Below are positions 6,046-32,000 of a stretch of 32,000 nt of DNA, piece after piece (position 1 is the stretch's first letter; every line of letters starts with the position of its first letter). The notes beneath the pieces were generated by a model. That model made no database searches, had not been told where the DNA came from, and saw only the letters and a program-made list of their open reading frames with translations. This stretch comes from Cupriavidus necator (lineage in GTDB: Bacteria; Pseudomonadota; Gammaproteobacteria; Burkholderiales; Burkholderiaceae). Where the stretch lies: the NCBI RefSeq assembly GCF_016127575.1, contig NZ_CP066019.1:630001-662000 (forward strand), in the 5' to 3' direction. The position numbers were made by a program, and so were the translations under genes.

Positions 6046-7197
6046 ATGCGTTTTTCACTGATCTATGAAGCCCAGACCGTCGATGCCTCGCGTGCCGGCG
6101 ACCACAAGGTGTTCGATGAAATCATGGAACAGGTGGTGCTGGCCGAGGACATGGGCTTTGACGTGGTCTGGGCGGTCGAGCACACCGCACTGACCAACTA
6201 TGCGCACATGAGCGCGCCGGAAACCTTCCTGGCCTTCGTCGCCGGGCGCACGCAGCGCATCGGCATCGGCCACGGCGTGGTGTGCCTGCCGCCGGCGATG
6301 AACCATCCGGTCAAGGTGGCCGAGCGCATCGCCACGCTGGACATCCTGTCCGGAGGCCGCGTGCACTTCGGCGTGGGCAAGGGCGGCACCCAGCAGGAGG
6401 CCGGCACCTTCGGCTACGACCTGAACAGCCTGCACCCGATGATCGACGAATCGATGTACCTGATCCCGAAGATCATGACGCAGGACGAGATCGAGCACGA
6501 CGGCGAGTTCATCAAGATCCCGCGCCGCCCGATCCACCCCAAGCCGCGCCAGGACCCGCACCCGCTGATGTACCTGGCCTGCACCAATGCCGACACGCTG
6601 CAGCGCGCCGGCGCGCGCGGCATGGGCGCGCTGGTGCTTGGCTTTGGCGGCCCCGAGGATGTCGCCAAAAAGAACGAGATCTACCGTACCGCGTGGGAGA
6701 CCCGCAAGCCTGAGGACCAGGTGGGCTTCCGCCCGCACCAGCACCTGGCCGCGCTGTGCCCGACCATCGTGCTGGAAGACGGCCTGGCCGCGCGCAAGAT
6801 CGGCATCAAGGGCCAGCGTTATTTCATGGAGTCGCTGTCGTACTGGTATGCCGGCGGCGAGCGGCCCGACCCGTCCACCTGGGACGACGAGCATGTCACC
6901 GCCACGGACGCGCAGGGCAAGGCCGTCATCAACACCAAGTTCGCCTCAGAGAAGGTCTCGGTGGATTTCAGCGACCCGTCGATGATGATGCTCAACCCCA
7001 ACCATGCCTACGGTACCGTCGAGGACTGTATCGGCTACGTGCAGCGCCTGATCGATTCCGGCGCCGACGAGATCCTGTTCATCTGCCAGATGGGCACGGT
7101 GCCGCAGTGGGCGCAGCTGGAAACCATCCGCAATATCGGCGAGCACGTGATCCCGCACTTCCGCAAGCAGGGACGGAAGCTGCGCGCGCTGGCTTGA
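6046..7197 (+). CDS. LLM-class (luciferase-like) flavin-dependent monooxygenase/oxidoreductase
   Basis: Start trimmed to MRFSLIYEAQ at 6046, with RBS AAGGGGA. 383 aa. Typical LLM N-terminus (FSLIYE...AEDMGFDVVWAVEHT) and C-terminal EILFICQMG. A REP hairpin follows the stop. Confidence 0.85.
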   Translation: MRFSLIYEAQTVDASRAGDHKVFDEIMEQVVLAEDMGFDVVWAVEHTALTNYAHMSAPETFLAFVAGRTQRIGIGHGVVCLPPAMNHPVKVAERIATLDILSGGRVHFGVGKGGTQQEAGTFGYDLNSLHPMIDESMYLIPKIMTQDEIEHDGEFIKIPRRPIHPKPRQDPHPLMYLACTNADTLQRAGARGMGALVLGFGGPEDVAKKNEIYRTAWETRKPEDQVGFRPHQHLAALCPTIVLEDGLAARKIGIKGQRYFMESLSYWYAGGERPDPSTWDDEHVTATDAQGKAVINTKFASEKVSVDFSDPSMMMLNPNHAYGTVEDCIGYVQRLIDSGADEILFICQMGTVPQWAQLETIRNIGEHVIPHFRKQGRKLRALA

Positions 7198-7223
7198 TCG
7201 GCGCTATGCAAGCCTGCGGGTTT

Positions 7224-7267
7224 GCTCCCCTCTCCCGCTTGCGGGAGAGGGGCCGGGGGAGAGGGCC
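7224..7267. repeat. REP-like palindromic element, copy 1
   Basis: Perfect inverted repeat CCCCTCTCCCGC-tt-GCGGGAGAGGGG (7227-7252), then GGGGAGAGGGCC. It shares the exact 19-mer CCCGCTTGCGGGAGAGGGG with the copy at 16578-16624. It starts 27 nt after the LLM stop. There is no T-tract. Confidence 0.7.
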
Positions 7268-7308
7268 AGAGCATCCACGAAGTCCCACTCACCAAATCGC
7301 GACATAGC

Positions 7309-7326
7309 TAGTCCCAACAGACGATG
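7309..7326 (+). promoter_or_regulatory. cluster motif site TAGTCCCAACAGACGATG
   Basis: Full motif match, 65 nt upstream of the hsaA-like GTG start. An extra left half-site AGTCCCACT lies at 7281-7289. Confidence 0.45.
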
Positions 7327-7390
7327 GCACCCGGCCCCACCGGTGCAAACATCAAGGCCAGCTACAAGACCAAGCAACAAGGAGACCGCG

Positions 7391-8584
7391 GTGCATCACG
7401 ACAACAATCCCAAGGAACTGGCGGCACGGCTGATCGCGCGTGCCGAGCAGATGATTCCGGTGCTGGCCGAGCGCGCCGCGCAGGCCGAGGCCGAAGCGCG
7501 CATTCCCGCCGAGACCATTGCCGACATGCAGGCCGCGGGCTTCTTCAAGGTGCTGCAGCCCCGCCGCCACGGCGGCTACGAACTCGATCCGCAGACCTTC
7601 TTCCGCATCCAGATGGCGCTGGCCAAGGGCTGCATGTCCACCGCCTGGGTCTATGGCGTGGTCGGCGTGCACAACTGGCAGCTGGCACTGTTCGACGAGC
7701 GCGCGCAGCAGGAAGTGTGGGGCAGCAACCCTGCCACGCTGATCGCCTCGACCTATATGCCGGTGGGCAAGGTCACGCCGGTCGAAGACGGCTATCGCTT
7801 CTCCGGCCACTGGAAGTTCTCCAGCGGCAGCGAACTGTGCGACTGGATCTTCCTGGGCGGGCTGGTGCCGCCGGCCGAGCCGGGCGGCGCCTATGACTAC
7901 CGCACCTTCCTGCTGCCGCGCTCCGACTACAAGATCGTGCGCAACTGGGATGTGCTGGGCCTGCGCGCGACCGGCAGCCACGATATCGTGGTCGAGGACG
8001 TGTTCGTGCCCGAGTACCGCACCCACCGCGCCGTCGATGGCGCCATGGGCACCAGCCCGGGGCTGGCGGTCAATGACGTTCCGCTGTACCGGCTGCCGTT
8101 CGCGCAGATCTTCGTGCGCGCGGTGTGCACCGCCTGCATCGGCGCGCTGGAAGGCACGCTCGATGACTTTGTCGCCTATGCCGACGGCCGCGTCAGCAGC
8201 AACGGTGGCGGAAAGACCGCGGAAGACGGCGGCGCGCAGATGGCTTGCGCCAACGCGCAGGTCGCCATCGACGAGATGCGGACCATCCTTGAGCGCAATT
8301 TCGACGAGCTGCTGGCCGTTGCGCGTGAAGGCGGCCAGGTGCAGACCCCGCGCCGCCTGCATTTCCGCTACCAGTCCGCGCAAGTGGCCGAGCGCTGCGC
8401 GCAGCTGGCCAACGGCCTGCTGCGCTATGCCGGCGGCAACGGCATCTACCGCAGCAACCCGATGGTGCGCCGCTTCCTCGACCTGCATGCGGCCCGCGCC
8501 CACTACGCCAACAACCTGGACCGCTTCGGCCAGAACCTGGGCGGCGTGATGATGGGCCGCGCCAACACTGACTTCTTCATTTGA
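7391..8584 (+). CDS. hsaA: acyl-CoA dehydrogenase-fold flavin-dependent monooxygenase, oxygenase component (HsaA/TesA1-like)
   Basis: I chose the GTG start at 7391, preceded by AAGGAGAC with a 6-nt spacer. 397 aa. The block LQPRRHGGYELDPQTFFRIQMALAKGCMSTAWVYGVVGVHNWQLALFDERAQQEVWG closely resembles Mtb HsaA as I recall it. Confidence 0.85.
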   Translation: MHHDNNPKELAARLIARAEQMIPVLAERAAQAEAEARIPAETIADMQAAGFFKVLQPRRHGGYELDPQTFFRIQMALAKGCMSTAWVYGVVGVHNWQLALFDERAQQEVWGSNPATLIASTYMPVGKVTPVEDGYRFSGHWKFSSGSELCDWIFLGGLVPPAEPGGAYDYRTFLLPRSDYKIVRNWDVLGLRATGSHDIVVEDVFVPEYRTHRAVDGAMGTSPGLAVNDVPLYRLPFAQIFVRAVCTACIGALEGTLDDFVAYADGRVSSNGGGKTAEDGGAQMACANAQVAIDEMRTILERNFDELLAVAREGGQVQTPRRLHFRYQSAQVAERCAQLANGLLRYAGGNGIYRSNPMVRRFLDLHAARAHYANNLDRFGQNLGGVMMGRANTDFFI

Positions 8585-8609: not shown

Positions 8610-10364
8610 ATGAGCCAGAGCAGAGCGCGCATGCAGCCCAGCGAGTTCGACGTGGTGGTGGTCGGCTCGGGCGCCGGCGGCATGCTGGCCGCCTGCCGCG
8701 CCGCGGACCGCGGACTGTCGGTGGTGGTGCTGGAAAAGAGCAGCCAGTACGGCGGCACCTCGGCGGTGTCCGGCGGCGGCATCTGGATTCCGCTCAACCA
8801 CCATATCGCGCCGGCGGGCGGGCGCGACGACTACGCCACGGCGCTGGAATACATCCTGGCGTGCGCCGGCGAGCACGGCGATCCACAGCGCGTGCGCGCC
8901 TATCTTGAGCAGGCGCCCCGCATGCTCCAGTACCTGGAGCAGCAGGCCGGCGTGCGTTACTACACGCTGCCGCGCTACGCGGACTACTTCCAGAAGGTTC
9001 CGGGCGCGATGCCGGGCTACCGCGCGCTCGACCCGATGCCGTTCGACGGCGCGCAGCTGCGCGAGGAATTCGCACGGCTGCGGCCGCCGTCGCCGGGCAC
9101 GCTGGTGGGCGGGCGCGTGGCCGTGACCTCGGCCGAGGCGCATGCGCTGCTGTGCCGCGCGCCCGGCTGGCTGGGCCTGGCGGTGCGCCAGTTTGCCCGC
9201 TACTGGCTGGACCTGGGCTGGCGCCGCAAGACCCGGCGCGACCGCCGGCTCACGCTCGGCAACAGCCTGGTCGGCGGCCTGCGGCGGGCCATGATGGACC
9301 GCGCGATTCCGCTGTGGCTCGACACCGCGCTGCAGGACCTGATCGTCGAGGATGGCACCGTGCGCGGCGTGCGCGCGGTGCAGGACGGGCGCGTGGTGGA
9401 GATCCGCGCGCTGCGCGGCGTGATCCTGGCCGCCGGCGGCTTCGAGCGCAACCAGGCCATGCGCGAACAGTACCTGCCGCAGCCGACCCAGGCCGCCTGG
9501 AGCGCGACCCCGCCCAACAACACCGGTGACGGCATCCGCGCCGCCCAGGCCGCCGGCGCCGGCGTGGCGCTGATGTCCCACGTCTGGGGCGCACCCACCG
9601 TGCATGTGCAGGGCGAGGAAAAGCAGCGCGCGCTCTTTATCGAGCGCGCCATGCCCGGCTGCCTGGTGGTGAACGGGCAGGGCCGGCGCTTCGTCAACGA
9701 GGCCGCGCCGTATTCCGAGTTCGTTCCCGCCATGTACCGCGACCACGAGAAAACCGGCAGCAGCGTGCCGGCGTGGATGGTGTTCGACGCCGCCTTCCGC
9801 CACAAATATCCGTGCGGGCCGATCCTGCCCGGCTCGGTCATGCCGGACCGCAGCATTCCGGCAAGCCTGTCCGGCATCCTGGTGCGCGCCGACTCGCTGG
9901 CGCAGCTGGCGCAGCGGATCGGTGTCGATGCCGGCGGCCTGGCCGACAGCGTGGCGCGCATGAACCACTATGCTGCCACCGGCGTGGACGAGGAGTTCGG
10001 CAAGGGCGACAACCTGTTCGATACCTACTACAGCGACCCGGCAGTGCGGCCCAACCCGTGCCTGGCGCCGATCGGCAAGGCGCCGTTCTACGCCGTGCGC
10101 ATCGATGCCGGCGACATCGGCACCAAGGGCGGCCTGGTGACGGACGCCAGCGCGCGCGTGCTGCGCGACGACGGCAGCGCCATTGCCGGGCTGTTCGCCA
10201 TCGGCAATACCAGTGCCTCGATGATGGGCACCAGCTATCCCGGCGCGGGCTCGACACTGGGCCCGGCCATGACCTTCGGCTTTATCGCTGCCGACGTGCT
10301 CTCTCAGAACGCGCGCCAGCCTGCCGCCGCGCCCCATGCTCAAACCGTACAGGAGGCCCTATGA
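8610..10364 (+). CDS. kstD: FAD-binding 3-oxosteroid 1-dehydrogenase (KstD/TesH-like)
   Basis: 584 aa with a GGAG RBS 7 nt upstream. It has DVVVVGSGAGG (FAD) and the blocks GGGIWIPLN, RRKTRRDRRLT, AGGFERNQAMREQYL, VPAWMVFDAAFR, GDIGTKGGL and GAGSTLGPAMTFGF. These match the C. testosteroni enzyme as recalled. Confidence 0.88.
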   Translation: MSQSRARMQPSEFDVVVVGSGAGGMLAACRAADRGLSVVVLEKSSQYGGTSAVSGGGIWIPLNHHIAPAGGRDDYATALEYILACAGEHGDPQRVRAYLEQAPRMLQYLEQQAGVRYYTLPRYADYFQKVPGAMPGYRALDPMPFDGAQLREEFARLRPPSPGTLVGGRVAVTSAEAHALLCRAPGWLGLAVRQFARYWLDLGWRRKTRRDRRLTLGNSLVGGLRRAMMDRAIPLWLDTALQDLIVEDGTVRGVRAVQDGRVVEIRALRGVILAAGGFERNQAMREQYLPQPTQAAWSATPPNNTGDGIRAAQAAGAGVALMSHVWGAPTVHVQGEEKQRALFIERAMPGCLVVNGQGRRFVNEAAPYSEFVPAMYRDHEKTGSSVPAWMVFDAAFRHKYPCGPILPGSVMPDRSIPASLSGILVRADSLAQLAQRIGVDAGGLADSVARMNHYAATGVDEEFGKGDNLFDTYYSDPAVRPNPCLAPIGKAPFYAVRIDAGDIGTKGGLVTDASARVLRDDGSAIAGLFAIGNTSASMMGTSYPGAGSTLGPAMTFGFIAADVLSQNARQPAAAPHAQTVQEAL

Positions 10365-10885
10365 GCGCCAACCCCGAACCCAGCACCGCGCTGCGCGAAG
10401 ACATGCTGATGGCGATGCGCCGCATGGCGCGCTCGGTGGCGGTGATCAGCTGCCGCCATGGCGAGCGCCGCTATTCGATGTCCGTGACCGCGGTCGATTC
10501 GCTGTCCGCGGACCCGCCTTCGCTGCTGATCTGCATCAACCGCAATTCTTCGATCTACCCGCCGCTGGATGCCGGCGCGGACTTCTGCATCAACCTGCTG
10601 GCAGCCGACCACCGCGATATCGCAGTGGATTGCAGCGGCCGGCTCAAGGGCGAGGAACGCTTCACCAGTGGCGAGTGGGAGGACGATCTGCTCGGCGTGC
10701 CGTGCCTGCGCGATGCCCAGGCGAACCTGGTGTGCCAGCAGGATGGCCGCTTCGACTACGGCACGCACGCGGTCTTCATCGGACGCCTGCGCGAGGTAAA
10801 GCTGGCTGGCGAGGTGTCGCCGCTGGTCTATGTCGATGGTGCCTACACCACGTCCGCGCCGCTTGGCGCACTGTGTTCGGCCTAA
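10361..10885 (+). CDS. hsaB: flavin reductase family protein (HsaB/TesA2-like)
   Basis: The start overlaps the kstD stop (ATGA at 10361-10364) and follows an AGGAGG RBS. 174 aa, flavin_reduct-type sequence (MRRMARSVAVISCRHGERRYSMSVTAVDSLSADPPSLLICINRNS). Confidence 0.85.
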   Translation: MSANPEPSTALREDMLMAMRRMARSVAVISCRHGERRYSMSVTAVDSLSADPPSLLICINRNSSIYPPLDAGADFCINLLAADHRDIAVDCSGRLKGEERFTSGEWEDDLLGVPCLRDAQANLVCQQDGRFDYGTHAVFIGRLREVKLAGEVSPLVYVDGAYTTSAPLGALCSA

Positions 10886-10904: not shown

Positions 10905-12611
10905 ATGTACCCTCCGACCGATTCCGCCACGCCGGTCCACGCGCCGCTGCGCCTCGACGATCCGGACGCACACCCGTGGCAGGCCGCCTGCGATGCCGTG
11001 GTGGTGGGCTTCGGCGCCGCCGGGGCCTGCGCCGCGCTGGAGGCCGCGCATGGCGGCGCGCGCGTGATCGTTGCGGAACGCTTCGAAGGCGGGGGCGCCA
11101 GCGCCAAGAGCGGCGGGGTGGTCTACGCCGGCGGCGGCACGCCCTACCAGTCTGCCGCGGGCTATGCCGATACACCGCAGGCGATGGCGGACTACCTGCG
11201 CCAGGAGACGGGCGGGGTCGTCAGCGATGCCACGCTGCAGGCGTTCTGTCAGCGCAGCCGCGAGATGATCGGCTGGCTTGAAGGCCTGGGCGTGGGCTTT
11301 GCCGCCACCGTGCCGCCGCGCAAGACCTCGTATCCGGCGCAGCCCTACTACCTCTACTACTCCGGCAACGAAGCGGTCGCCGCCTACGCGCAGCATGCCG
11401 CGCCCGCGCCGCGCGGTCACCGCGTGAAAGGCCCCGGCATGTCCGGCCGCACGCTGTACGCCGTCCTGCGCGCCGCCGTGCAGGCCCGGCCGGAGGTGAC
11501 GGTGATGCGCCAGACCGCGGCAAGGCGGCTGATTCTCGACCAGGACGGCGCGGTCGTCGGCATCGAGCTGTGGCAGCTGCCGCCGGGCCGCCACCAGAAA
11601 CGCCACGCCCGCCTGGCGCGCCTGGCCGAGCGCCTGCACAACGTAGCGCCTGCGCTGGCCGACCTGCTGCGCGAGCGCGTGCTGCAACTGGAACTGCGCC
11701 ATGCGCGCCCGGTCGCGGTGCGCACCGGCGCGGTGGTGCTGGCCACCGGCGGCTTTATCTTCAACCGCGCCATGGTGGCGCGCCACGCCGGCAAATACCT
11801 GCAGAACTGGCGCCTTGGCGCGACCGGCTGCGACGGCAGCGGCATCCGCCTTGGTGAGTCGGCGGGCGCGGCCACGCGGCACCTGGAGCGGGTCTCGGCA
11901 TGGCGCTTCATCAATCCGCCGTTCGACTGGGCGCGCGGCTGCGTGGTCGATGCGCAGGGTGCGCGCATCGCCAACGAGGAAACCTACGGCGCCACCCTTG
12001 GCCACGCCATCTGCGAACAGCACGGCGGGCGGGCCTGGCTGGTCCTGAACCGCGAACTGGCGCGCGCCGCGCTGCGTGAATGCCTGGGCGGCCGGCTGTG
12101 GGCCTTCCAGGCCTTGCCCGCGGCGCTGCTGATGCTGGCGGGGGCGCGGCGTGCCTCCAGCCTCGAAGCGCTTGCCGGCAAGCTGGGCATGCCCGGCGCG
12201 GCGCTGCGGGCCACCGTCGATGCCTATAACGCCGCGGCCCGCGGCGAGATCCCGGATCCGGCCGGCAAATCGGCGCCGATGTGCGCGTCGCTCGAAACCG
12301 GGCCGTGGCTTGCCATCGACATCTCGGCCAACAGCCGCGTCTTTCCGTGCCCTGCCATCACGCTGGGCGGATTGTCGGTGGAAGAGTCCAGCGGCCGTGT
12401 ACTGGCCGCCGCTGGCGGGGCGCCCATTCCAGGGCTCTACGCCGTGGGCCGCACTGCCGTTGGCATCGCATCCAACCATTACGTAAGCGGCCTGTCGCTT
12501 GCCGACTGCATCTGGTCGGGGCGCAACGCGGGCCGCCATCTGACACGACAGCCTGCCGGCGACCGGCAGGCACACACCAACGAGGAGACCACCCATGAGC
12601 CAACGTACTGA
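10905..12611 (+). CDS. FAD-binding dehydrogenase of the KstD/fumarate-reductase flavoprotein family; candidate 3-oxo-5alpha-steroid 4-dehydrogenase (TesI position)
   Basis: Start trimmed to MYPPTDS at 10905. It has AVVVGFGAAGACAA (FAD) and GLYAVGRTA near the C-terminus. The specific function is inferred only from family and position beside kstD and hsaB. Confidence 0.75.
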   Translation: MYPPTDSATPVHAPLRLDDPDAHPWQAACDAVVVGFGAAGACAALEAAHGGARVIVAERFEGGGASAKSGGVVYAGGGTPYQSAAGYADTPQAMADYLRQETGGVVSDATLQAFCQRSREMIGWLEGLGVGFAATVPPRKTSYPAQPYYLYYSGNEAVAAYAQHAAPAPRGHRVKGPGMSGRTLYAVLRAAVQARPEVTVMRQTAARRLILDQDGAVVGIELWQLPPGRHQKRHARLARLAERLHNVAPALADLLRERVLQLELRHARPVAVRTGAVVLATGGFIFNRAMVARHAGKYLQNWRLGATGCDGSGIRLGESAGAATRHLERVSAWRFINPPFDWARGCVVDAQGARIANEETYGATLGHAICEQHGGRAWLVLNRELARAALRECLGGRLWAFQALPAALLMLAGARRASSLEALAGKLGMPGAALRATVDAYNAAARGEIPDPAGKSAPMCASLETGPWLAIDISANSRVFPCPAITLGGLSVEESSGRVLAAAGGAPIPGLYAVGRTAVGIASNHYVSGLSLADCIWSGRNAGRHLTRQPAGDRQAHTNEETTHEPTY

Positions 12612-16097: not shown

Positions 16098-16114
16098 TGA
16101 ACAAGGAACCGATC

Positions 16115-17524: not shown

Positions 17525-17577
17525 GTGTGTCTCCTTCATTGATGTCATCGAAGCTTGGAACGGGCACGGCATCGCGA

Positions 17578-17595
17578 CATCCTTCGTTCGGACTA
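17578..17595 (-). promoter_or_regulatory. cluster motif site TAGTCCGAACGAAGGATG (read on the minus strand)
   Basis: Full motif match oriented toward the minus-strand SDR, 54 nt upstream of its start at 17524. Confidence 0.4.
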
Positions 17596-19827: not shown

Positions 19828-19832
19828 CCGGG

Positions 19833-20732: not shown

Positions 20733-20775
20733 GCTTGTCTCCTTGGTGGGGTGGTGTGGCCGCGGTGCGCGGCCA

Positions 20776-25899: not shown

Positions 25900-25922
25900 A
25901 CCCGCCAACCCAAGGAGCGACC

Positions 25923-26723
25923 GTGAGCGCCACTTATGAATTCACCCGCGCCGAGCTGATGATTGCCGCCGCCGCCCGCGAATGGCGCGACGACGGCGAG
26001 GTGCTGGCCACCGGCATCGGCACCGGCCCGCGCATCGCCGCCAGCCTGGCGCGGCTTGCGCACAACCCGGGCCTGCTGCTGACCGACGGCGAGGCCTACC
26101 TGGTGGAAACGCCGGTGCCGCTGGGCCCGCGCGAGCCCGGCTACAAGGTGCGCGCCAGCGGCTGGATGGGCTACTCGCGCGTGTTCGACTGCCTGTGGGG
26201 CGGGCGGCGCCATGCGCTGGTGATGCCGACACAGATCGACCGCTTCGGCCAGGCCAATATTTCCTGCCTGGGCGGCACCCATGCGCAGCCCAGGACCCAG
26301 CTGCTGGGCGCGCGCGGCTTTCCCGGCAACAGCATCCACCACGCCAATTCCTTCTTCGTGCCGGCGCACAGCACGCGCGCGTTCGTCGCCGGTGAAGTCG
26401 ACATGGTCTGCAGCGCCGGCTACAACCCGGCCCGCCGGCTGGAGGGCATGCGCAGCTTCGTTGACCTGCGCGTGATTGTCACCGACCTGTGCGTGATGGA
26501 TTTCGGGGGGGCTGACCATGCCATCCGCGTGCGCTCGCTGCACCCGGGGGCGAGCTTCGACCAGGTACAGGCGGCCACCGGCTTTGCGCTGGCGAACACG
26601 CCCGGCGAGGCCCTGCCGGAGACGGCGCCGCCGACACCGGAAGAGCTGCGGCTGATCGCCCAGCTTGATCCGCACAACCTGCGCGCGGCCATCGTGCGCG
26701 GCAATCCTTCCGGACGCGTGTGA
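25923..26723 (+). CDS. ipdB: CoA-transferase family subunit B (IpdB/ScdL2-like)
   Basis: I preferred GTG 25923, with AGGAG 5 nt upstream, over the track start TTG 25896. 266 aa. It sits immediately downstream of subunit A. Confidence 0.8.
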   Translation: MSATYEFTRAELMIAAAAREWRDDGEVLATGIGTGPRIAASLARLAHNPGLLLTDGEAYLVETPVPLGPREPGYKVRASGWMGYSRVFDCLWGGRRHALVMPTQIDRFGQANISCLGGTHAQPRTQLLGARGFPGNSIHHANSFFVPAHSTRAFVAGEVDMVCSAGYNPARRLEGMRSFVDLRVIVTDLCVMDFGGADHAIRVRSLHPGASFDQVQAATGFALANTPGEALPETAPPTPEELRLIAQLDPHNLRAAIVRGNPSGRV

Positions 26724-26730: not shown

Positions 26731-27618
26731 ATGACAACGCCAGCTACCGAAGCCATCAGCCTTGGCCCCAATGCCGAGGTGCTCTACCAGGTCGCGGACG
26801 GCATTGCCACCGTGACCATGAACCGGCCGCAGTTCCACAACGCGCAGAACTCAAAGATGACCTACGCGCTGGACGAGGCCTACCGGCGCGCCGCCGCGGA
26901 CGACGCGGTCAAGGTGATCGTGCTGCGCGGTGCTGGCAAGCATTTCTCGGCCGGGCACGACATCGGCACGCCGGGGCGCGACATCAACGAGTCGTTCGAG
27001 CGTGCCTCGCTCTGGTATGACCATGTCAACAAGCCGGGCGGCGAGTTTCTCTATGCCCGCGAGCAGGAGGTCTACCTGGGCATGTGCCGGCGCTGGCGCG
27101 AGCTGCCCAAGCCGACCATCGCCATGGTGCATGGCGCCTGCATCGCCGGCGGGTTGATGCTGGCATGGGTATGCGACCTGATCGTGGCGTCGGACGATGC
27201 CTTCTTTGCCGATCCGGTGGTGCGCATGGGCATTCCCGGCGTCGAGTACTTCGCGCATCCCTACGAGCTGCATCCGCGCATCGCCAAGGAGTTCCTGTTC
27301 CTGGGCGAGCGCATGGGCGCCGAACGCGCCGAGCGCATGGGCATGGTCAACCGCGTGGTGCCGCGCGACGCGCTGGAAGACACCGTCTACGGCATGGCCG
27401 CCAAGGTCGCGCAGATGCCGCGGCTGGGCCTGACGCTGACCAAGCAGGCGGTCAACCATGTGGAAGACCTGCAGGGCAAGCGCACCGCGATGGATGCGGT
27501 GTTTGCCTGGCACCACTTCGCCCATGCGCACAACGAGCTGGTCAGCGGCGACAAGCTCGGCGGCTATGACGCGCGCGCCATGGCCGCTTCGCAACGCACC
27601 GGCGAGGACAAGGCATGA
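26731..27618 (+). CDS. enoyl-CoA hydratase/isomerase family protein (EchA20-like)
   Basis: Start at MTTPATEAIS (26731). 295 aa. Crotonase signature VIVLRGAGKHFSAGHDI and HGACIAGG. Confidence 0.82.
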   Translation: MTTPATEAISLGPNAEVLYQVADGIATVTMNRPQFHNAQNSKMTYALDEAYRRAAADDAVKVIVLRGAGKHFSAGHDIGTPGRDINESFERASLWYDHVNKPGGEFLYAREQEVYLGMCRRWRELPKPTIAMVHGACIAGGLMLAWVCDLIVASDDAFFADPVVRMGIPGVEYFAHPYELHPRIAKEFLFLGERMGAERAERMGMVNRVVPRDALEDTVYGMAAKVAQMPRLGLTLTKQAVNHVEDLQGKRTAMDAVFAWHHFAHAHNELVSGDKLGGYDARAMAASQRTGEDKA

Positions 27619-28697
27619 GCCCCGCGAGCCTGCACACCGTGCTGTGCGACCTGCTGGGCTGCCGCTACCCCATCGTGCAGACGGCGATGGGCTGGGTGGC
27701 GGATGCGAAGCTGGTCGCGGCCAGCGGCAATGCCGGGGCCTTCGGCTTCCTGGCCGGCGCCACCATTGCGCCCGGCGAGGTCGAGCGCGAGATCCTGCGC
27801 GTGAAGGCGCTCAGCGACCGGCCCTTCGGCATCAACTTCCACATGTTCCAGCCCAACGCGGATGAAGTGATCGAGATGGCGATCCGCCACCGGCTGCGCG
27901 CCGTCAGCTACGGGCGTGGCCCGGACGCGAAGATGATCGGCAAGCTCAAGGCGGCCGGCGTGGTCTGCATGCCGACCGTGGGCGCGGCCAAGCATGCGGC
28001 CAAGGCCGTGGAACTGGGTGCGGACGTGGTCACCGTGCAGGGCGGCGAGGGCGGCGGCCATACCGGCGGCACGCCGACCACGCTGCTGCTGCCGCAGGTG
28101 CTGGACAGCGTGAGCGTGCCGGTGGTGGCCGCCGGCGGCTTCTTCGACGGCCGCGGACTGGCCGCGGCACTGGCCTACGGCGCGGCCGGCGTGGCCATGG
28201 GCACGCGCTTCCTGATGTCGGCCGAATCGCCGGTGCCGGCGCCAACGCTGGAGCGCTACGTCAAGGTGCGCGACCCGGCCAGCATCCGCGTGTCGCTGGC
28301 CATTGACGGCCTGCCGCAGCGAATGATCGACAACGACCTGCTGCTGGCGCTGGAGAAGGCCGGTCCGCTGCGGCGCACCTGGCTGGCGCTGGCGGCCGCG
28401 CGCAAGTGGCAGGCGCGTACCGGCATGCGCAGCGCGCAGATGCTGGCCACCGCCTGGCGCGCGATGCGCGAGCAGGACTACAGCGCCGCCCAGACCCTGA
28501 TGGCCGCCAACGCGCCGGTGCTGATCCAGCGCGCGATGGTCGAGGGATGCCCCGATGAAGGCGTGCTGCCCAGCGGCCAGGCCGCCGCGGCGATCCGGGC
28601 CATCGAATCCTGCGAGCAGATCGTGGCCGGCATGGCCGCGCAGGCACAGGCGCGCCTGGCGGCGCTGGCTGGCGCCGGACTGGCTGCAGCGGCCTGA
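27615..28697 (+). CDS. nitronate monooxygenase (NMO) family FMN enzyme; IpdC-like enoyl reductase candidate
   Basis: The ATGA overlap with the upstream stop sets the start. 360 aa. It has PIVQTAMGWV, VTVQGGEGGGHTG and AAGGFFDGRGLAAALAYGAAGVAMGTRF. Confidence 0.85.
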   Translation: MSPASLHTVLCDLLGCRYPIVQTAMGWVADAKLVAASGNAGAFGFLAGATIAPGEVEREILRVKALSDRPFGINFHMFQPNADEVIEMAIRHRLRAVSYGRGPDAKMIGKLKAAGVVCMPTVGAAKHAAKAVELGADVVTVQGGEGGGHTGGTPTTLLLPQVLDSVSVPVVAAGGFFDGRGLAAALAYGAAGVAMGTRFLMSAESPVPAPTLERYVKVRDPASIRVSLAIDGLPQRMIDNDLLLALEKAGPLRRTWLALAAARKWQARTGMRSAQMLATAWRAMREQDYSAAQTLMAANAPVLIQRAMVEGCPDEGVLPSGQAAAAIRAIESCEQIVAGMAAQAQARLAALAGAGLAAAA

Positions 28698-28716: not shown

Positions 28717-29508
28717 ATGCAAACGAACAAAAAGACCGGGCCGTTCCGCATCGACACCGCCGATGGCATCGCCGAACTGGTGATCGACCATGCGCCAGTC
28801 AATGCGCTCGACTGCGCCGGCTGGCATGCGCTGGCCGCCGCGATCGACCAGCTGGGCACCGATCCCGCCGTGCGCGTGATCGTGCTGCGCGGCGAAGGCC
28901 GCGGCTTCTGCGCCGGCGTCGACATCAAGGAGCTGGCCGCGCACCCGCAGCGCATCGTCGATGTCAACGCCGGTAACTACGCCACCTTCCGCGCCGTGCA
29001 CCGCAATCCCAAGCCGGTCATCGTGGCCGTGCACGGCTTCGTGCTGGGCGGCGGCATCGGCATCTGCGGCGCGGCCGACATCATCGTGGCCGCAGATTGT
29101 GCGCGCTTTGGCGTGCCGGAGATCGACCGCGGCGCCATGGGCGGCGGCGCCCACCTGCAGCGCATGTTCGGCGTGCAGAAGGTCAGGGCGATGTACTTCA
29201 CCGGCGAGATGATCGATGCCGCCGAGGCGTACCGGCTGGGCGCGGTCGAGCGCGTGGTGCCGCGCGCAGAGTTGCGCGAGGCCGCCATGACGCTGGCCCG
29301 CCAGATCGCCGCCAAGAGCCCGGCCATGCTGCAGCTGGCCAAGGAAGCGCTCAACGGCGTGGAAGACGGCAACTTGGAGGACAAATACCGCTGGGAACAG
29401 GGCTTCACGCTGCAGGCCTACATGAGCGCCGATTCCGGCGAGGCGCGCGCCGCCTTTGTCGAAGGCCGCGAAGCCCGCTTTGCGCAGGGAGAGCGCGATG
29501 CAGCTTGA
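28717..29508 (+). CDS. enoyl-CoA hydratase/isomerase family protein
   Basis: Start at MQTNKKTGPF (28717), with RBS AGAGGAAA. 263 aa. It has VIVLRGEGRGFCAGVDIKE and HGFVLGGG. Confidence 0.82.
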   Translation: MQTNKKTGPFRIDTADGIAELVIDHAPVNALDCAGWHALAAAIDQLGTDPAVRVIVLRGEGRGFCAGVDIKELAAHPQRIVDVNAGNYATFRAVHRNPKPVIVAVHGFVLGGGIGICGAADIIVAADCARFGVPEIDRGAMGGGAHLQRMFGVQKVRAMYFTGEMIDAAEAYRLGAVERVVPRAELREAAMTLARQIAAKSPAMLQLAKEALNGVEDGNLEDKYRWEQGFTLQAYMSADSGEARAAFVEGREARFAQGERDAA

Positions 29509-30664
29509 ATACACCGACGCCCAGCGCGCCTTCCGCGCCGAGGTGCGCGACTGGATGGCCGCGCACGTGCCGCGCACGCCGCTGGCGAGCTTCGATACCG
29601 AAGCGGGCTTCGCCCAGCACCGCGCGTGGGAGGCCACGCTCAACCAGGGCCGCTGGAGCATGGTCACGTGGCCGGCCGAGCTGGGCGGGCGCGGCTGCGA
29701 CCTGATCGAGTGGCTGATCTTCGAGGAGGAGTACTGGCGTGCCGGCGCGCCGATGCGCGTCAACCAGAACGGCATCTTCCTGCTCGGGCCCACGCTGATG
29801 GAATTCGGCACCGAGGCGCAGAAGGCGCGCTTCCTGCCGCGCATGGCCTCGGGCGAGCATGTCTGGGCGCAGGGCTGGTCCGAGCCGAGCGCAGGCTCGG
29901 ACATGGCCGCGATCCGCTGCAGCGCGATCCGGCAGGGCGATGACTATGTGATCAACGGCCAGAAGATCTGGTCGACGCGGGCGGTGTGGGCGGACTGGCT
30001 GTTCGGCCTGTTCCGCACCGACCCGGCCTCGACCCGACACCATGGCCTGACCTTCATCCTGATGCCGCTGGACACGCCCGGCATCATCGTGCGCCCGATC
30101 CGCCAGCTCAACGGCCAGACCGGCTTTGCCGAGATCTTCTTCGACGACGTGCGCGTGCCGGTGGAAAACCGCCTGGCCGCAGAAGGCGCCGGCTGGCAGG
30201 TGGCCATGGCCACCGCCGGCTTCGAACGCGGCCTGATGCTGCGCTCGCCGGCGCGCTTCCAGGAAACCGCGCGCGCGCTGGTCAGGCTGTACCAGGCCAA
30301 CCGCGAGGCGGCGGACCGCGACCCGTCGCTGCGCGAGGCGGTGCTGCGCGCCTGGATGGACGCCGAGGCCTACACGCTGTCCACCTACGCCACCGCGAGC
30401 CGCCTGGTGCGCGGCGGCCATATCGGCGCGGAGTCGAGCACGAACAAGGTGTTCTGGTCCGAGCTGGACATCCATATGCACGATACCGCGCTGGCCATCC
30501 TGGGGCAGTCCGCAGAGGTCGCGCCCGACGGCCAGCCGCCGGGTTCGCTCGGCCACTGGCTGGATGGCTTCCTGTTCTCGCAGGCCGGGCCGATCTATGC
30601 CGGCACCAACGAGATCCAGCGCAATATCGTCGCCGAGCGCCTGCTCGGCATGCCGCGCGCATGA
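29498..30664 (+). CDS. acyl-CoA dehydrogenase family protein (first of an adjacent pair)
   Basis: Start at MQLEYTDAQRAF (29498), with RBS GGGAGAG and an 11-nt overlap with the upstream gene. 388 aa. It has GWSEPSAGSD and IYAGTNEIQRNIVAERLLG. Confidence 0.85.
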   Translation: MQLEYTDAQRAFRAEVRDWMAAHVPRTPLASFDTEAGFAQHRAWEATLNQGRWSMVTWPAELGGRGCDLIEWLIFEEEYWRAGAPMRVNQNGIFLLGPTLMEFGTEAQKARFLPRMASGEHVWAQGWSEPSAGSDMAAIRCSAIRQGDDYVINGQKIWSTRAVWADWLFGLFRTDPASTRHHGLTFILMPLDTPGIIVRPIRQLNGQTGFAEIFFDDVRVPVENRLAAEGAGWQVAMATAGFERGLMLRSPARFQETARALVRLYQANREAADRDPSLREAVLRAWMDAEAYTLSTYATASRLVRGGHIGAESSTNKVFWSELDIHMHDTALAILGQSAEVAPDGQPPGSLGHWLDGFLFSQAGPIYAGTNEIQRNIVAERLLGMPRA

Positions 30665-30684
30665 CGGCACCCGGGGAAAACACC

Positions 30685-31752
30685 ATGGATTTCGCATTGA
30701 CCGAAGAGCAGGAGCAGTTTGCCGAGGCGATCCGGCGCTTCCTGATGACCGAGATGACGCCCGAACTGACGCGCGAGCTGTGGGCCACCGAGTCTGGCCG
30801 CTCCGACGCGCTGTGGCGCCAGCTTGCCAACCAGGGCCTGACCGCGGTGATGGTGCCGCAGGAGCAGGGCGGACTGGGGCTGGGCGAGGTCGAATGGGCG
30901 CCGCTGGCGCAGGCCTGCGGCTACTTTGCGCTGCCCGAGCCTTTGCTGGACACTGCGCTGGTCGCGGCCGGGCTGCTGCGCGATGCGCTCGCGGCGGCGC
31001 CGAACGCCTCGGCGCACGAACGCTGCGCCACGCTGCTGGAGCGCATCGCCGCCGGCGATGCCCGCGTGGCGGTGGCGCATCCGCAAGAGCGGCTGGTGGC
31101 CGACGCCCATGTCGCCGACGCGATCCTGTGCGCGCACGAAGGTGCCGTGCACCTGCTGCGGCCCGACCAGGCCGTGCTGACGGCGCGCACCGGGCTCGAT
31201 CCTTCGCGCCGCCTGTTCGAGCTGGCGTGGACGCCGGCCGCGGAGTCCGAACTGATCCCGTCCGGTAGTGGCCTGTGGAGCAGCGCGCTGAACCGCGGCG
31301 CGCTTGGCGTGGCCGCGCAGCAGCTGGGCCTGACCCAGCGCATGCTGGACCTGGCGATCGACTACAGCGCGCAGCGCAAGCAGTTCGGCAAGGCCATCGG
31401 CGCCTACCAGGCGGTCAAGCACCTGCTGGCCGACGTGGCGATCCAGCTCGAGTTCGCCCGGCCGGTGCTGCTGCGCGCCGCCGCCGCGCTGGCGCACGGC
31501 CTGCCCGATGCGGGCCTGCATGTCTCGCACGCCCGCGTGGCCGCCGCGCGCTGCGCGTGGAGCGCGGCGCGCCAGGCGATCCAGGTGCATGGCGCAATGG
31601 GCTACACCTGGGAGCTGGACCTGCAGATCTTCACCAAGCGCGCCTGGGCCCTGGCGGGAAGCTGGGGCGACCGTGCCTTCCACAAGGCGCGCATGGGCGC
31701 GCACATCCTTGACGGCGTGCATGAGATCGGCGCCGGCGCCACCTTCGCCTGA
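30685..31752 (+). CDS. acyl-CoA dehydrogenase family protein (second of the pair)
   Basis: Start at MDFALTEEQEQF (30685). 355 aa. It has QRKQFGKAIGAYQAVKHLLAD and HGAMGYTWELDLQIF. Confidence 0.82.
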   Translation: MDFALTEEQEQFAEAIRRFLMTEMTPELTRELWATESGRSDALWRQLANQGLTAVMVPQEQGGLGLGEVEWAPLAQACGYFALPEPLLDTALVAAGLLRDALAAAPNASAHERCATLLERIAAGDARVAVAHPQERLVADAHVADAILCAHEGAVHLLRPDQAVLTARTGLDPSRRLFELAWTPAAESELIPSGSGLWSSALNRGALGVAAQQLGLTQRMLDLAIDYSAQRKQFGKAIGAYQAVKHLLADVAIQLEFARPVLLRAAAALAHGLPDAGLHVSHARVAAARCAWSAARQAIQVHGAMGYTWELDLQIFTKRAWALAGSWGDRAFHKARMGAHILDGVHEIGAGATFA

Positions 31753-31772
31753 ATCCAAAGAGAACCAAGACC

Positions 31773-32000
31773 ATGAAAGACGCCTATATCGTTGATGCCC
31801 TGCGCACGCCCACCGGGCGCCGCAAGGGCGGACTGTCGCACATGCACGGCGCCGACCTGGGCGGCTTCGTGCTGGCCGAGCTGGTGCGCCGCAACGGCAT
31901 TCCCGCCGAGGATTATGACGACGTGGTGTTCGGCTGCGTCGACACCATCGGCCCGCTGGCCGGCAATATCGCCCGCAGCGCGTGGCTGGCCGCCGGCCTG
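31773..32000 (+). CDS. thiolase (acetyl-CoA C-acyltransferase family), truncated at the 3' end by the window
   Basis: Not in the ORF track because it runs off the window. ATG 31773 gives MKDAYIVDALRTPTGRRKGGLSHMHGADLGGFVL...GCVDTIGPLAGNIARSAWLAAGL, a typical thiolase N-terminus. Confidence 0.75.
   Translation, partial: MKDAYIVDALRTPTGRRKGGLSHMHGADLGGFVLAELVRRNGIPAEDYDDVVFGCVDTIGPLAGNIARSAWLAAGL

What the first reader, a model, noticed from the sequence alone, without database searches (positions are those of the whole stretch)
6046..32000. Steroid-nucleus (9,10-seco pathway) catabolic cluster with tes/scd- and hsa/ipd-type gene content
The gene content is hard to explain otherwise. One operon holds an HsaA/TesA1-like oxygenase, KstD/TesH, an HsaB/TesA2 flavin reductase, a second KstD-family flavoprotein where TesI sits in Comamonas, a 3beta/17beta-HSD-like SDR, a KshB/ORF17-like reductase and a FadD3/ScdA-like ligase. 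A later operon holds an HsaC/TesB-type extradiol dioxygenase, IpdA-IpdB, an EchA20-like hydratase, an IpdC-like NMO enzyme, a crotonase, two ACADs and a thiolase. The neighbourhood tesA1/tesH/tesA2/tesI/ORF17/ORF18 and the run starting at tesB recall the C. testosteroni TA441 cluster as I remember it. Several expected genes are absent from this window: the KshA Rieske oxygenase, the HsaD/TesD MCP hydrolase and TesEFG. The only alpha/beta hydrolase here is an HGGG esterase, which is not HsaD-like. The cluster therefore probably continues past 32000. Steroid catabolism in betaproteobacteria is characterised mainly in Comamonas. I am not aware of an experimental description in a Cupriavidus/Ralstonia-type host, but I cannot verify that here.
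Basis: partly seen in the sequence, partly recalled or inferred. Interest (0 to 1): 0.65.

Follow-up and report, generated by a model that had tools for sequence, protein, structure and literature searches.

The report
Known Cupriavidus necator steroid-degradation cluster

Summary
Window 6046-32000 encodes TesA1/HsaA, TesH/KstD, TesA2/HsaB, a Δ4-(5α)-dehydrogenase-like TesI, a 3β/17β-HSD-like SDR, a KshB-type reductase and a FadD3/ScdA ligase. A second run holds TesB/HsaC, IpdAB, two crotonases, an NMO enzyme, an ACAD pair and a thiolase.

The window is 100% identical to Cupriavidus necator H16 chromosome 2 (AM260480.1). The "missing" genes were located. The scd genes continue past 32000. KshA lies about 11.5 kb beyond the window end, as seen in 99%-identical strains.

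Bergstrand et al. 2016 (mBio) list this replicon as a predicted steroid degrader. They also showed that C. necator ATCC 17699 (= H16) grows on and completely removes testosterone, but not cholate or cholesterol. I found no gene-level genetics for Cupriavidus. Verdict: real and correctly interpreted, but already known; low interest.

The parts
4290..5474 (+). LuxR-type regulator 1 (C-terminal GerE HTH). Possible TesR-like activator. Paralogue of 21839-23026.
   Evidence: Pfam GerE. 68% identical to the second LuxR. Gene call in H16. Regulatory role is inferred.
6046..7197 (+). Luciferase-like (flavin-dependent) monooxygenase, 193 bp upstream of tesA1. Accessory gene, role unknown.
   Evidence: Pfam Bac_luciferase 158 bits. 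No NCBIfam family reaches its cutoff.
7391..8584 (+). TesA1/HsaA-type oxygenase subunit of 3-HSA 4-hydroxylase
   Evidence: NCBIfam HsaA is the best hit, 377 bits (cutoff 450), against 219 for the C2 hydroxylase. PDB 2RFQ/3AFE 249/246 bits against C2 165.
8610..10364 (+). TesH/KstD 3-ketosteroid delta1-dehydrogenase
   Evidence: PDB 7P18 (3-oxosteroid 1-dehydrogenase) 674 bits and 4C3X 305 bits. NCBIfam best hits are 3-oxosteroid 1-dehydrogenase models at 582/555 bits, below their cutoffs.
10361..10885 (+). TesA2/HsaB-type flavin reductase. Its start overlaps the kstD stop by 4 bp.
   Evidence: Translation. Pfam Flavin_Reduct on the called gene. NCBIfam gives generic flavin reductases: RutF 100, HpaC 90, HsaB 67 bits. 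The subfamily is not resolved; the role is inferred from position.
10905..12611 (+). TesI-like 3-ketosteroid delta4-(5alpha)-dehydrogenase-family flavoprotein
   Evidence: Best PDB hit is 4AT0 (3-ketosteroid delta4-5alpha-dehydrogenase) at 183 bits, next family 89. NCBIfam NF005511 814 bits, above its cutoff of 466.
12595..13359 (+). 3beta/17beta-hydroxysteroid dehydrogenase-like SDR
   Evidence: Best PDB hit is 1HXH (3beta/17beta-hydroxysteroid dehydrogenase) at 246 bits, next 181.
13388..14455 (+). KshB/ORF17-type reductase (FAD_binding_6 + NAD_binding_1 + C-terminal 2Fe-2S)
   Evidence: Pfam domain architecture. NCBIfam best hit is PaaE at 269 bits, below its cutoff. The assignment as KshA's partner is inferred from context.
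14457..16097 (+). ScdA/FadD3-type HIP-CoA ligase
   Evidence: NCBIfam 'FadD3 family acyl-CoA ligase' 772 bits, above its cutoff of 657.
16097..16561 (+). SnoaL_4 (NTF2-fold) protein, last gene of the tesA1 run. Role unknown.
   Evidence: Pfam SnoaL_4. Its start overlaps the ligase stop by 1 bp.
16658..21606 (.). Central block of oxidoreductases: SDR 16658-17572(-), SnoaL_4 17730-18149(+), SDR 18146-19003(+), second 3beta/17beta-HSD-like SDR 19029-19787(+), epimerase-type SDR 19833-20732(-), SDR 20776-21606(-)
   Evidence: Pfam. Gene calls in H16. The 19029-19787 SDR is 66.5% identical to the 12595-13359 SDR. Steroid substrates are inferred, not shown.
21839..23026 (+). LuxR-type regulator 2, upstream of the tesB run
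   Evidence: Pfam GerE. Gene calls.
23283..23999 (+). EthD-domain protein, 105 bp upstream of tesB. Role unknown.
   Evidence: Pfam EthD. Gene call.
24105..25001 (+). TesB/HsaC extradiol dioxygenase (3,4-DHSA 4,5-dioxygenase)
   Evidence: NCBIfam HsaC is the best hit at 302 bits (cutoff 450), BphC 265. PDB 2ZI8 260 bits against BphC 161-164.
25009..26723 (+). ScdL1L2/IpdAB ring-opening hydrolase (CoA-transferase fold): alpha 25009-25899, beta 25923-26723
   Evidence: PDB 6CO6/6CON alpha 257 bits against glutaconate CoA-transferase 95. Beta 172 against 51.
26731..27618 (+). Crotonase in the ScdN/EchA20 position
   Evidence: NCBIfam NF006140 466 bits, above its cutoff of 280. The best PDB hits are two unnamed enoyl-CoA hydratases, 3OME and 3T3W, at 241/237 bits, next 128. 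EchA20 identity is inferred from position beside IpdAB.
27615..28697 (+). NMO-family flavoenzyme in the ScdK/IpdC position
   Evidence: Pfam NMO 227 bits. No specific NCBIfam model. Role inferred from context.
28717..29508 (+). Second crotonase (ScdY-like position)
   Evidence: NCBIfam NF005925 388 bits, above its cutoff of 260.
29498..31752 (+). Pair of adjacent, overlapping acyl-CoA dehydrogenase genes (29498-30664 and 30661-31752), as in the heteromeric steroid ACADs
   Evidence: Pfam ACAD domains. The second protein's best NCBIfam hit is IpdE2 at 136 bits, below its cutoff. The called gene lacks an Acyl-CoA_dh_M hit.
31773..32000 (+). N-terminus of a thiolase (383 aa in full). The operon runs on beyond the window.
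   Evidence: NCBIfam thiolase models. The full gene is seen in L001.

Best explanation

Proposed route; the steps are inferred from homology to the Comamonas tes/scd and actinobacterial hsa/ipd systems.
1. Testosterone is oxidised at C17 by a 3beta/17beta-HSD-like SDR.
2. It is desaturated by TesH/KstD, and by the TesI-like enzyme for 5alpha-saturated substrates.
3. It is 9alpha-hydroxylated by KshA together with the KshB-type reductase. KshA is encoded about 11.5 kb beyond the window end. The B ring then opens and the A ring aromatises to give 3-HSA.
4. TesA1A2 hydroxylates 3-HSA, and TesB cleaves the resulting catechol.
5. A TesD-type hydrolase and TesEFG-type enzymes, encoded 31-37 kb upstream, release HIP plus a dienoate that is converted to pyruvate and propionyl-CoA.
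6. ScdA/FadD3 activates HIP to its CoA ester. The tesB-linked run then degrades rings C and D. That run comprises IpdAB, the EchA20-like and second crotonases, the IpdC-like reductase, heteromeric ACADs and thiolases, and it continues downstream.

LuxR-type regulators and, in the upstream block, a TetR regulator probably control expression.

Shown: gene content, family assignments, genome identity, and (from the literature) growth of this strain on testosterone. Inferred: every individual substrate assignment, the operon structure and the regulation.
For: Genome identity: the window is 100% identical to AM260480.1 (C. necator H16 chromosome 2) and to CP196536.1.

Discriminating comparisons all fall on the steroid side: HsaA, HsaC, KstD, delta4-(5alpha)-dehydrogenase, IpdA and IpdB, 3beta/17beta-HSD. 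The FadD3-family model is passed above its cutoff.

Tight gene spacing is consistent with two operons.

Downstream continuation in H16: thiolase, SDR, two ACADs, SDR, MaoC, thiolase, a BNR protein and an MMPL/sterol-sensing transporter. In 99%-identical C. necator strains these are followed by OYE, KshA, an SDR, DUF1329, two ACADs, a ligase and TctC. That KshA scores 378-387 bits to solved KshA structures, next family 60.

Upstream in H16: TesG/F/E-type aldolase, dehydrogenase and hydratase, DUF1302, an SDR, a TesD-type MCP hydrolase, an SDR, a protein that sources name steroid delta-isomerase, and TetR.

Literature: NC_008314 (H16 chromosome 2) is in the list of predicted steroid degraders. 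C. necator ATCC 17699 grows on testosterone with complete removal, and not on cholate or cholesterol (PMC4810484). ATCC 17699 = H16.
Against: Several best hits (HsaA, KstD, HsaC, IpdE2) are below NCBIfam's equivalog cutoffs. The flavin reductase, the KshB-type reductase, the NMO enzyme and the crotonases are not resolved to steroid-specific subfamilies by sequence.

The H16 TesD-type hydrolase scores about equally to HsaD and BphD (185 vs 177 bits) and is nearer to BphD and MhpC than to HsaD among solved structures.

KshA was seen in 99.2%-identical strains, not read directly in H16 DNA. No expression or knockout data link these particular genes to the growth phenotype. I could not run a direct comparison with Comamonas Tes/Scd sequences; only the 3beta/17beta-HSD structure 1HXH was available.
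Confidence: 0.92

Rival explanations
1. A non-steroid aromatic catabolic cluster: a two-component phenol or hydroxyphenylacetate hydroxylase plus a biphenyl-type extradiol dioxygenase, placed next to generic fatty-acid beta-oxidation genes.
For: The HsaA-like protein also matches the C2 hydroxylase (219 bits NCBIfam; 165 bits PDB). The TesB-like protein matches BphC (265 bits). The flavin reductase scores higher to RutF/HpaC than to HsaB. The reductase's best NCBIfam hit is PaaE.
Against: In every head-to-head comparison the steroid enzyme wins by a wide margin. KstD (674 bits), a delta4-(5alpha)-dehydrogenase homologue, a 3beta/17beta-HSD homologue, a FadD3-family ligase above its cutoff and IpdAB have no role in a phenol or biphenyl pathway. 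KshA is in the same gene region. The strain grows on testosterone.
Confidence: 0.02
2. The cluster's main natural substrates are not androgens. They could be bile acids, or other polycyclic compounds such as plant or fungal sterols or other hydroxylated steroids. The many SDRs would serve as hydroxysteroid dehydrogenases that feed these compounds into the same core pathway.
For: The window holds at least eight SDR-type genes, two SnoaL_4 proteins, an LLM and an EthD protein beyond the canonical set. One SDR has a weak 7alpha-HSDH match, 132 bits, below its cutoff. An OYE-type flavoprotein with a weak BaiCD match sits beside KshA. A sulfotransferase/PAPS module is adjacent.
Against: H16 (ATCC 17699) did not grow on or metabolise cholate or cholesterol, and Cupriavidus lacks most cholate side-chain genes (PMC4810484). 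No side-chain module was found within about 50 kb, apart from one ChsH2-like/SCP2-thiolase pair.
Confidence: 0.05
3. The window genes are a partly redundant or decaying copy, and the growth on testosterone is due to genes elsewhere in the genome.
For: TesD/TesEFG are separated from the window by about 30 kb that includes unrelated genes. No expression data exist for these genes.
Against: All ORFs are intact and have the coding signature of high third-position G+C. The region is conserved across Cupriavidus, Ralstonia, Paraburkholderia and Burkholderia. [quoted passage not shown]
Confidence: 0.01

Closest known systems
Comamonas testosteroni TA441 / C. thiooxydans CNB-2 tes-scd steroid degradation mega-cluster
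   Same: Same enzyme set for A/B-ring opening: TesH, TesI, TesA1A2, TesB, an ORF17-type reductase and ScdA. Same tesB-led run: ScdL1L2, crotonases, an NMO enzyme, paired ACADs and thiolases. LuxR-type regulator(s) are nearby. Also a betaproteobacterial host. The 2026 TA441 preprint reports tes and scd counterparts in C. necator NH9.
   Different: The gene order differs. By my recollection, tesD-tesEFG follow tesA1A2 in TA441. In H16 they sit in a separate block 31-37 kb upstream with DUF1302, SDRs, a steroid-isomerase-like protein and TetR. KshA lies downstream of the scd genes, after an MMPL transporter and an OYE protein. No chs (C17 side-chain) cluster was found, and Cupriavidus lacks most cholate side-chain genes and does not grow on cholate. 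Extra genes (LLM, EthD, two SnoaL_4, several SDRs) are interleaved. I could not compute percent identities to the TA441 proteins.
Actinobacterial hsa/ksh/kst and ipd (KstR2-regulon) genes of Mycobacterium tuberculosis and Rhodococcus jostii RHA1
   Same: Homologues of HsaA, HsaC, KstD, the delta4-(5alpha)-dehydrogenase, IpdAB, FadD3 and KshA are the best solved-structure or NCBIfam matches.
   Different: Scores fall below the NCBIfam equivalog cutoffs, so these are the divergent proteobacterial branch. The regulators are LuxR- and TetR-type proteins whose relation to KstR/KstR2 was not tested. There is no Mce4-type uptake system and no cholesterol side-chain genes; an MMPL/DUF1302/DUF1329 set is present instead.
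Predicted steroid clusters of Burkholderia/Paraburkholderia/Ralstonia (Bergstrand et al. 2016)
   Same: The MMPL transporter next to the scd genes is 74-97% identical across about 80 Burkholderiaceae genomes. These genera also lack the cholate side-chain genes.
   Different: In Paraburkholderia silviterrae the TesD-type hydrolase and the TesF/TesG-type genes sit directly beside the transporter. In Cupriavidus they are in a distant block.

Membership tests
Aerobic 9,10-seco steroid-nucleus catabolic cluster (tes/scd; hsa/ksh/ipd) | 3-ketosteroid delta1-dehydrogenase (KstD/TesH) | tested here: met
   8610-10364: 674 bits to 7P18 and 305 bits to 4C3X. NCBIfam KstD models are the best hits, though below cutoff.
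Aerobic 9,10-seco steroid-nucleus catabolic cluster (tes/scd; hsa/ksh/ipd) | 3-ketosteroid 9alpha-hydroxylase: KshA Rieske oxygenase plus KshB reductase | tested here: met
   A reductase with the KshB-type domain architecture is at 13388-14455. KshA (Rieske + KshA_C; 378-387 bits to 4QDF/4QDC/2ZYL, next family 60) lies about 11.5 kb beyond the window end in C. necator strains that are 99.2% identical over the overlap. For H16 itself the evidence is that synteny plus the published HMM screen, which required KshA.
Aerobic 9,10-seco steroid-nucleus catabolic cluster (tes/scd; hsa/ksh/ipd) | Two-component 3-HSA hydroxylase (HsaAB/TesA1A2) | tested here: met
   Oxygenase 7391-8584: HsaA is the best hit in NCBIfam (377 bits vs 219 for the C2 hydroxylase) and in PDB (249 vs 165). 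An adjacent flavin reductase is at 10361-10885, but its subfamily is not resolved.
Aerobic 9,10-seco steroid-nucleus catabolic cluster (tes/scd; hsa/ksh/ipd) | Extradiol dioxygenase of the HsaC/TesB type | tested here: met
   24105-25001: HsaC is the best hit in NCBIfam (302 vs 265 for BphC). PDB 2ZI8 260 bits vs 161-164 for BphC. Below the NCBIfam cutoff of 450.
Aerobic 9,10-seco steroid-nucleus catabolic cluster (tes/scd; hsa/ksh/ipd) | MCP hydrolase HsaD/TesD | tested here: inconclusive
   Absent from the window. An MCP hydrolase with a GNSLGG elbow lies 31 kb upstream in H16 (L102:9089-9961). It scores HsaD 185 vs BphD 177 in NCBIfam, and BphD 171 > MhpC 142 > HsaD 136 in PDB. Its context supports a TesD role: a protein named steroid delta-isomerase, SDRs, TesEFG-type genes, and relatives that some sources name as the steroid hydrolase.
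Aerobic 9,10-seco steroid-nucleus catabolic cluster (tes/scd; hsa/ksh/ipd) | Hydratase, aldolase and acylating aldehyde dehydrogenase (TesEFG/HsaEFG) | tested here: met
   These lie 34-37 kb upstream in H16 and pass the generic NCBIfam equivalog cutoffs: hydratase 432, dehydrogenase 469, aldolase 553 bits. They are not steroid-specific, and published work notes that they are often outside steroid clusters.
Aerobic 9,10-seco steroid-nucleus catabolic cluster (tes/scd; hsa/ksh/ipd) | HIP-CoA ligase (FadD3/ScdA) | tested here: met
   14457-16097: NCBIfam 'FadD3 family acyl-CoA ligase' 772 bits, above its cutoff of 657.
Aerobic 9,10-seco steroid-nucleus catabolic cluster (tes/scd; hsa/ksh/ipd) | C/D-ring module: IpdAB with IpdC-, EchA20- and heteromeric-ACAD-type genes | tested here: met
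   IpdA 257 and IpdB 172 bits to 6CO6/6CON, vs 95 and 51 to glutaconate CoA-transferase. The NMO enzyme, the crotonases and the ACAD pair are adjacent. IpdC and EchA20 identity is by position only.
Aerobic 9,10-seco steroid-nucleus catabolic cluster (tes/scd; hsa/ksh/ipd) | The host grows on or degrades a steroid | not testable with these tools
   From the literature: C. necator ATCC 17699 (= H16) grows on testosterone with complete removal (PMC4810484 Table 2; strain identity). The phenotype has not been tied to these genes.
Comamonas tes/scd cluster (orthology, gene by gene) | Reciprocal best hits to TA441/CNB-2 Tes and Scd proteins | not tested
   No TA441/CNB-2 protein sequences were available here. 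The exception is 1HXH, the 3beta/17beta-HSD structure, which I recall is from C. testosteroni; it is the best hit of the 12595-13359 SDR. Bergstrand et al. ran reciprocal BLASTp against CNB-2 on genomes that included H16.

The most novel reading that the evidence does not exclude
The non-canonical genes that sit inside or beside the Cupriavidus steroid region could form an uncharacterised peripheral steroid-modifying module. Examples would be steroid sulfation or desulfation handling, a flavin-dependent (type II Baeyer-Villiger-like) oxygenation that uses the TesA2 reductase, or funnelling of hydroxylated steroids other than testosterone. The genes concerned are:
- the luciferase-like monooxygenase ahead of tesA1;
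- the EthD protein ahead of tesB;
- two SnoaL_4 proteins;
- the block of extra SDRs;
- the sulfotransferase/PAPS-synthesis genes just upstream, which in another C. necator strain lie directly between the TesD block and this region.
Probability: 0.12. Interest if true: 0.45.

Novelty: already known. Interest (0 to 1): 0.15.

Why it matters
C. necator H16 is a major chassis for CO2-based and waste-based bioproduction. Its ability to mineralise androgens therefore bears on bioremediation of endocrine disruptors and on steroid biotransformation engineering. That capacity and its genomic basis were published in 2016, so this finding adds no new biology.

What this check adds is a gene-by-gene map of the H16 region. 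The core window is flanked by a TesD/TesEFG/isomerase/TetR block 29-37 kb upstream, and by scd genes, a transporter and KshA extending about 18 kb downstream. The check also notes that I found no gene-level genetics for Cupriavidus in the searchable literature.

Tried and rejected
1. Sigma-70 promoter and intrinsic terminator scan of 3900-23890. Counts were close to the shuffled controls (2 vs 1.9 promoters; 15 vs 9.5 terminators), and the terminator-like sites listed fall inside genes. It was not informative, so the operons are inferred from gene spacing only.

2. None was found up to the TctC gene. Beyond that come a transposase (in strain H850) and an unrelated Htd2/HpcH/PrpD/CoA-transferase set.

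3. A motif scan (G[NH]SxGG) of 90 fetched loci for MCP hydrolases. It found them beside the transporter only in Paraburkholderia silviterrae and Caballeronia sp., not in Cupriavidus. This redirected the search upstream.

4. CP196549.1 and CP196451.1 were first taken to be H16 derivatives. BLAST showed only 99.2-99.5% identity to the window, so H16 coordinates were taken from AM260480.1.

It was worked around through cluster-member ids.

6. The HGGG esterase (2088-3044) was considered as a non-orthologous replacement for TesD. This was rejected because a proper MCP hydrolase exists in the upstream block.

7. Literature search for gene-level work by H16 locus tag (H16_B06...) together with 'ketosteroid': no papers.

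Full report
**What is there.** The window is about 70% G+C. I picked real genes by third-position G+C and checked them against the gene calls stored for loci covering the window. This gives 32 genes, all intact.

From 7391 to 16561 on the + strand, nine genes lie 28 bp or less apart or overlap:
- an HsaA/TesA1-type oxygenase;
- KstD/TesH;
- a flavin reductase whose ATG overlaps the kstD stop;
- a second FAD_binding_2 flavoprotein;
- an SDR;
- an FNR + 2Fe-2S reductase;
- a FadD3-family ligase;
- a SnoaL_4 protein.

A luciferase-like monooxygenase (6046-7197) sits 193 bp ahead of this run.

From 24105 to the window end, nine genes lie 23 bp or less apart or overlap:
- a TesB/HsaC-type dioxygenase;
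- a two-subunit CoA-transferase-fold enzyme;
- a crotonase;
- an NMO-family enzyme;
- a second crotonase;
- two ACADs;
- the start of a thiolase.

An EthD-domain gene sits 105 bp ahead of this run.

Between the two runs are four classical SDRs, one epimerase-type SDR, a second SnoaL_4 protein and a LuxR-type regulator. A 68%-identical LuxR paralogue, an SDR and an HGGG/GDSAG esterase lie to the left of 6046.

I ran that test against curated NCBIfam models and against all solved structures.

| Window gene | Steroid-enzyme hit | Rival or next hit |
|---|---|---|
| Oxygenase 7391-8584 | HsaA 377 bits (NCBIfam); 3-HSA hydroxylase oxygenases 2RFQ/3AFE 249/246 (PDB) | C2 hydroxylase 219 (NCBIfam); 165 (PDB) |
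| Dioxygenase 24105-25001 | HsaC 302 (NCBIfam); 2ZI8 260 (PDB) | BphC 265 (NCBIfam); 161-164 (PDB) |
| CoA-transferase-fold alpha / beta | 6CO6/6CON subunits 257 / 172 | Glutaconate CoA-transferase 95 / 51 |
| KstD 8610-10364 | 3-oxosteroid 1-dehydrogenase 7P18 674 | next family 143 |
| Second flavoprotein 10905-12611 | 3-ketosteroid delta4-(5alpha)-dehydrogenase 4AT0 183 | next 89 |
| SDR 12595-13359 | 3beta/17beta-HSD 1HXH 246 | next 181 |
| Ligase 14457-16097 | FadD3-family model 772 (cutoff 657) | — |

2ZI8 is deposited as "probable BphC"; by my recollection it is M. tuberculosis HsaC. Likewise I recall 6CO6/6CON as the IpdAB structures.

Some assignments are weaker:
- Several best hits (HsaA, KstD, HsaC, IpdE2) fall below the NCBIfam equivalog cutoffs. 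I read this as a divergent proteobacterial branch.
- The flavin reductase, the KshB-type reductase, the NMO enzyme and the crotonases are not resolved to steroid subfamilies. They are assigned by position only.

**Where the window comes from, and the "missing" genes.** Exact-protein look-ups place the window on Cupriavidus necator H16 chromosome 2. It is 100% identical to AM260480.1 and CP196536.1. Window coordinate w corresponds to AM260480.1 position 704,662 + w.

Downstream in H16 the tesB run continues with a thiolase, an SDR, two ACADs, an SDR, a MaoC hydratase, a thiolase, a BNR-repeat protein and an MMPL/sterol-sensing transporter. In three C. necator-type strains, one of them 99.2% identical to H16 over the 8.2-kb overlap, the transporter is followed by:
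- an OYE-type flavoprotein;
- KshA (Rieske + KshA_C; 378-387 bits to solved KshA structures, next family 60);
- an SDR and a DUF1329 protein;
- two ACADs, a ligase and TctC.

After TctC come a transposase (in strain H850) and an unrelated pathway. By synteny KshA sits at about window 43,550-44,650.

TesD and TesEFG are not downstream. A Paraburkholderia TesD-type hydrolase found beside the transporter there served as a query. It led to Cupriavidus orthologues and, through cluster members carrying H16 accessions, to the H16 locus itself.

The upstream block lies at AM260480.1 667,763-675,986, which is about window -36.9 to -28.7 kb. It holds, in order: aldolase, acylating aldehyde dehydrogenase, hydratase, DUF1302 and an SDR on one strand. 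On the other strand are the MCP hydrolase (673,221-674,093), an SDR, an NTF2-fold protein that sources name steroid delta-isomerase, and a TetR regulator.

The hydratase, dehydrogenase and aldolase pass their generic NCBIfam cutoffs. The hydrolase has the GNSLGG elbow, but sequence does not separate HsaD from BphD: 185 vs 177 bits in NCBIfam, and BphD > MhpC > HsaD among structures. Its steroid role therefore rests on context.

Between this block and the window, H16 carries unrelated genes (a peptidase, TctC, LysR, glycerate kinase and others) and a CysD/CysNC/sulfotransferase set. In another C. necator strain the TesD block abuts that sulfotransferase set much more closely.

**How it most likely works.** The route follows the established Comamonas and actinobacterial pathways (Horinouchi preprint; Bergstrand et al.).
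1. 17beta-oxidation of testosterone by the HSD-like SDR(s).
2. delta1 (and delta4) desaturation by TesH and TesI.
3. 9alpha-hydroxylation by KshA with the reductase at 13388-14455, followed by spontaneous B-ring opening to 3-HSA.
4. Hydroxylation by TesA1A2 and meta-cleavage by TesB.
5. Hydrolysis by the upstream TesD-type enzyme to HIP plus 2-hydroxyhexadienoate, which TesEFG convert to pyruvate and propionyl-CoA.
6. Activation of HIP by ScdA/FadD3, then degradation of rings C and D by the tesB-linked beta-oxidation-like genes, including the IpdAB ring-opening hydrolase.

Gene content and family membership are shown here. Substrates, operons and regulation are inferred.

**What is already known.** Bergstrand et al. 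2016 (PMC4810484) screened 8,277 genomes with HMMs for eight key enzymes and required KshA and HsaC/TesB. Their Table S1 lists NC_008314 (R. eutropha H16 chromosome 2) among the 265 predicted steroid degraders. They report several relevant points:
- Cupriavidus, Ralstonia and Burkholderia lack most cholate side-chain genes.
- tesEFG homologues are often outside steroid clusters.
- C. necator ATCC 17699 grew on testosterone as sole organic substrate with complete removal, but did not use cholate or cholesterol.

ATCC 17699 is H16. A 2019 review lists the strain as a testosterone degrader. A 2026 preprint on TA441 reports tes and scd counterparts in C. necator NH9. Searches for gene-level work on this H16 region found nothing.

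**Verdict.** Two points need correcting: TesD/TesEFG are upstream, not past 32000, and experimental evidence in this very strain exists. This is an already known, correctly annotatable catabolic cluster, and interest is low.

The only open corner is the set of accessory genes inside the region: the LLM, EthD, the SnoaL_4 proteins, the extra SDRs and the neighbouring sulfotransferase/PAPS genes. Their roles are unknown and nothing here shows they are unusual.

Noticed in passing
upstream of the window in H16: L003 13037-19213 (about window -6,170 to +8): An SDR, a sulfotransferase (PF00685/PF13469), DUF1214, CysD and a CysN-CysC fusion (PAPS synthesis) lie immediately left of the window. In another C. 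necator strain (L090) the CysNC, CysD, DUF1214 and sulfotransferase genes lie only about 4 kb from the TesD/TetR block, so they are embedded in the steroid gene region. A link to steroid sulfation is possible but untested.
   Followed up: partly
window 6046-7197 (+): A luciferase-like flavin-dependent monooxygenase sits 193 bp ahead of tesA1. No NCBIfam family reaches its cutoff. It could draw reduced flavin from the TesA2 reductase. It has no counterpart that I can name in the canonical tes/hsa set.
   Followed up: partly
window 23283-23999 (+); 16097-16561 (+); 17730-18149 (+): An EthD-domain protein lies just ahead of tesB. Two SnoaL_4 (NTF2-fold) proteins are also present: one is the last gene of the tesA1 run and the other heads a pair of SDR genes. 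Their roles are unknown.
   Followed up: no
window 4290-5474 (+) and 21839-23026 (+): Two LuxR-type regulators are 68% identical at the protein level and about 78% at the DNA level. One sits ahead of each main run, which suggests a duplication. Two 3beta/17beta-HSD-like SDRs (12595-13359 and 19029-19787) are likewise 66.5% identical.
   Followed up: partly
window 994-2091 (-) and 24-989 (+): A RibBA fusion (DHBP synthase + GTP cyclohydrolase II) overlaps the stop of the HGGG esterase gene by 4 bp, so riboflavin synthesis sits next to a flavoenzyme-rich cluster. Next to it is a 321-aa protein with no Pfam hit.
   Followed up: no
L102 (H16, AM260480.1 664,133-684,918), genes at 1-1101; L095 1-2015: A TPP-dependent enzyme, a ChsH2-like zinc-ribbon/OB-fold (DUF35) protein and an SCP2-type thiolase lie about 2.5-4.5 kb beyond the TesG-type aldolase. 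DUF35/thiolase pairs of this kind occur in steroid side-chain cleavage systems, yet the strain is reported not to use cholate.
   Followed up: no
L086 2097-3338; L098 8684-9925 (about window +42.2 to +43.5 kb by synteny): A 413-aa OYE-family flavoprotein lies between the MMPL transporter and KshA. It has weak matches to the N-terminal domain of the BaiCD bile-acid flavoenzyme and to bilirubin reductase. It may be an enoate or steroid ene-reductase.
   Followed up: no
L004 and L095 (CP196549.1); L098 (CP196451.1): These two complete C. necator chromosome-2 records have assembly accessions close to that of the H16-identical CP196536.1. They are only 99.2-99.5% identical to the window or its downstream extension, so they are different strains and not H16 derivatives.
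   Followed up: yes
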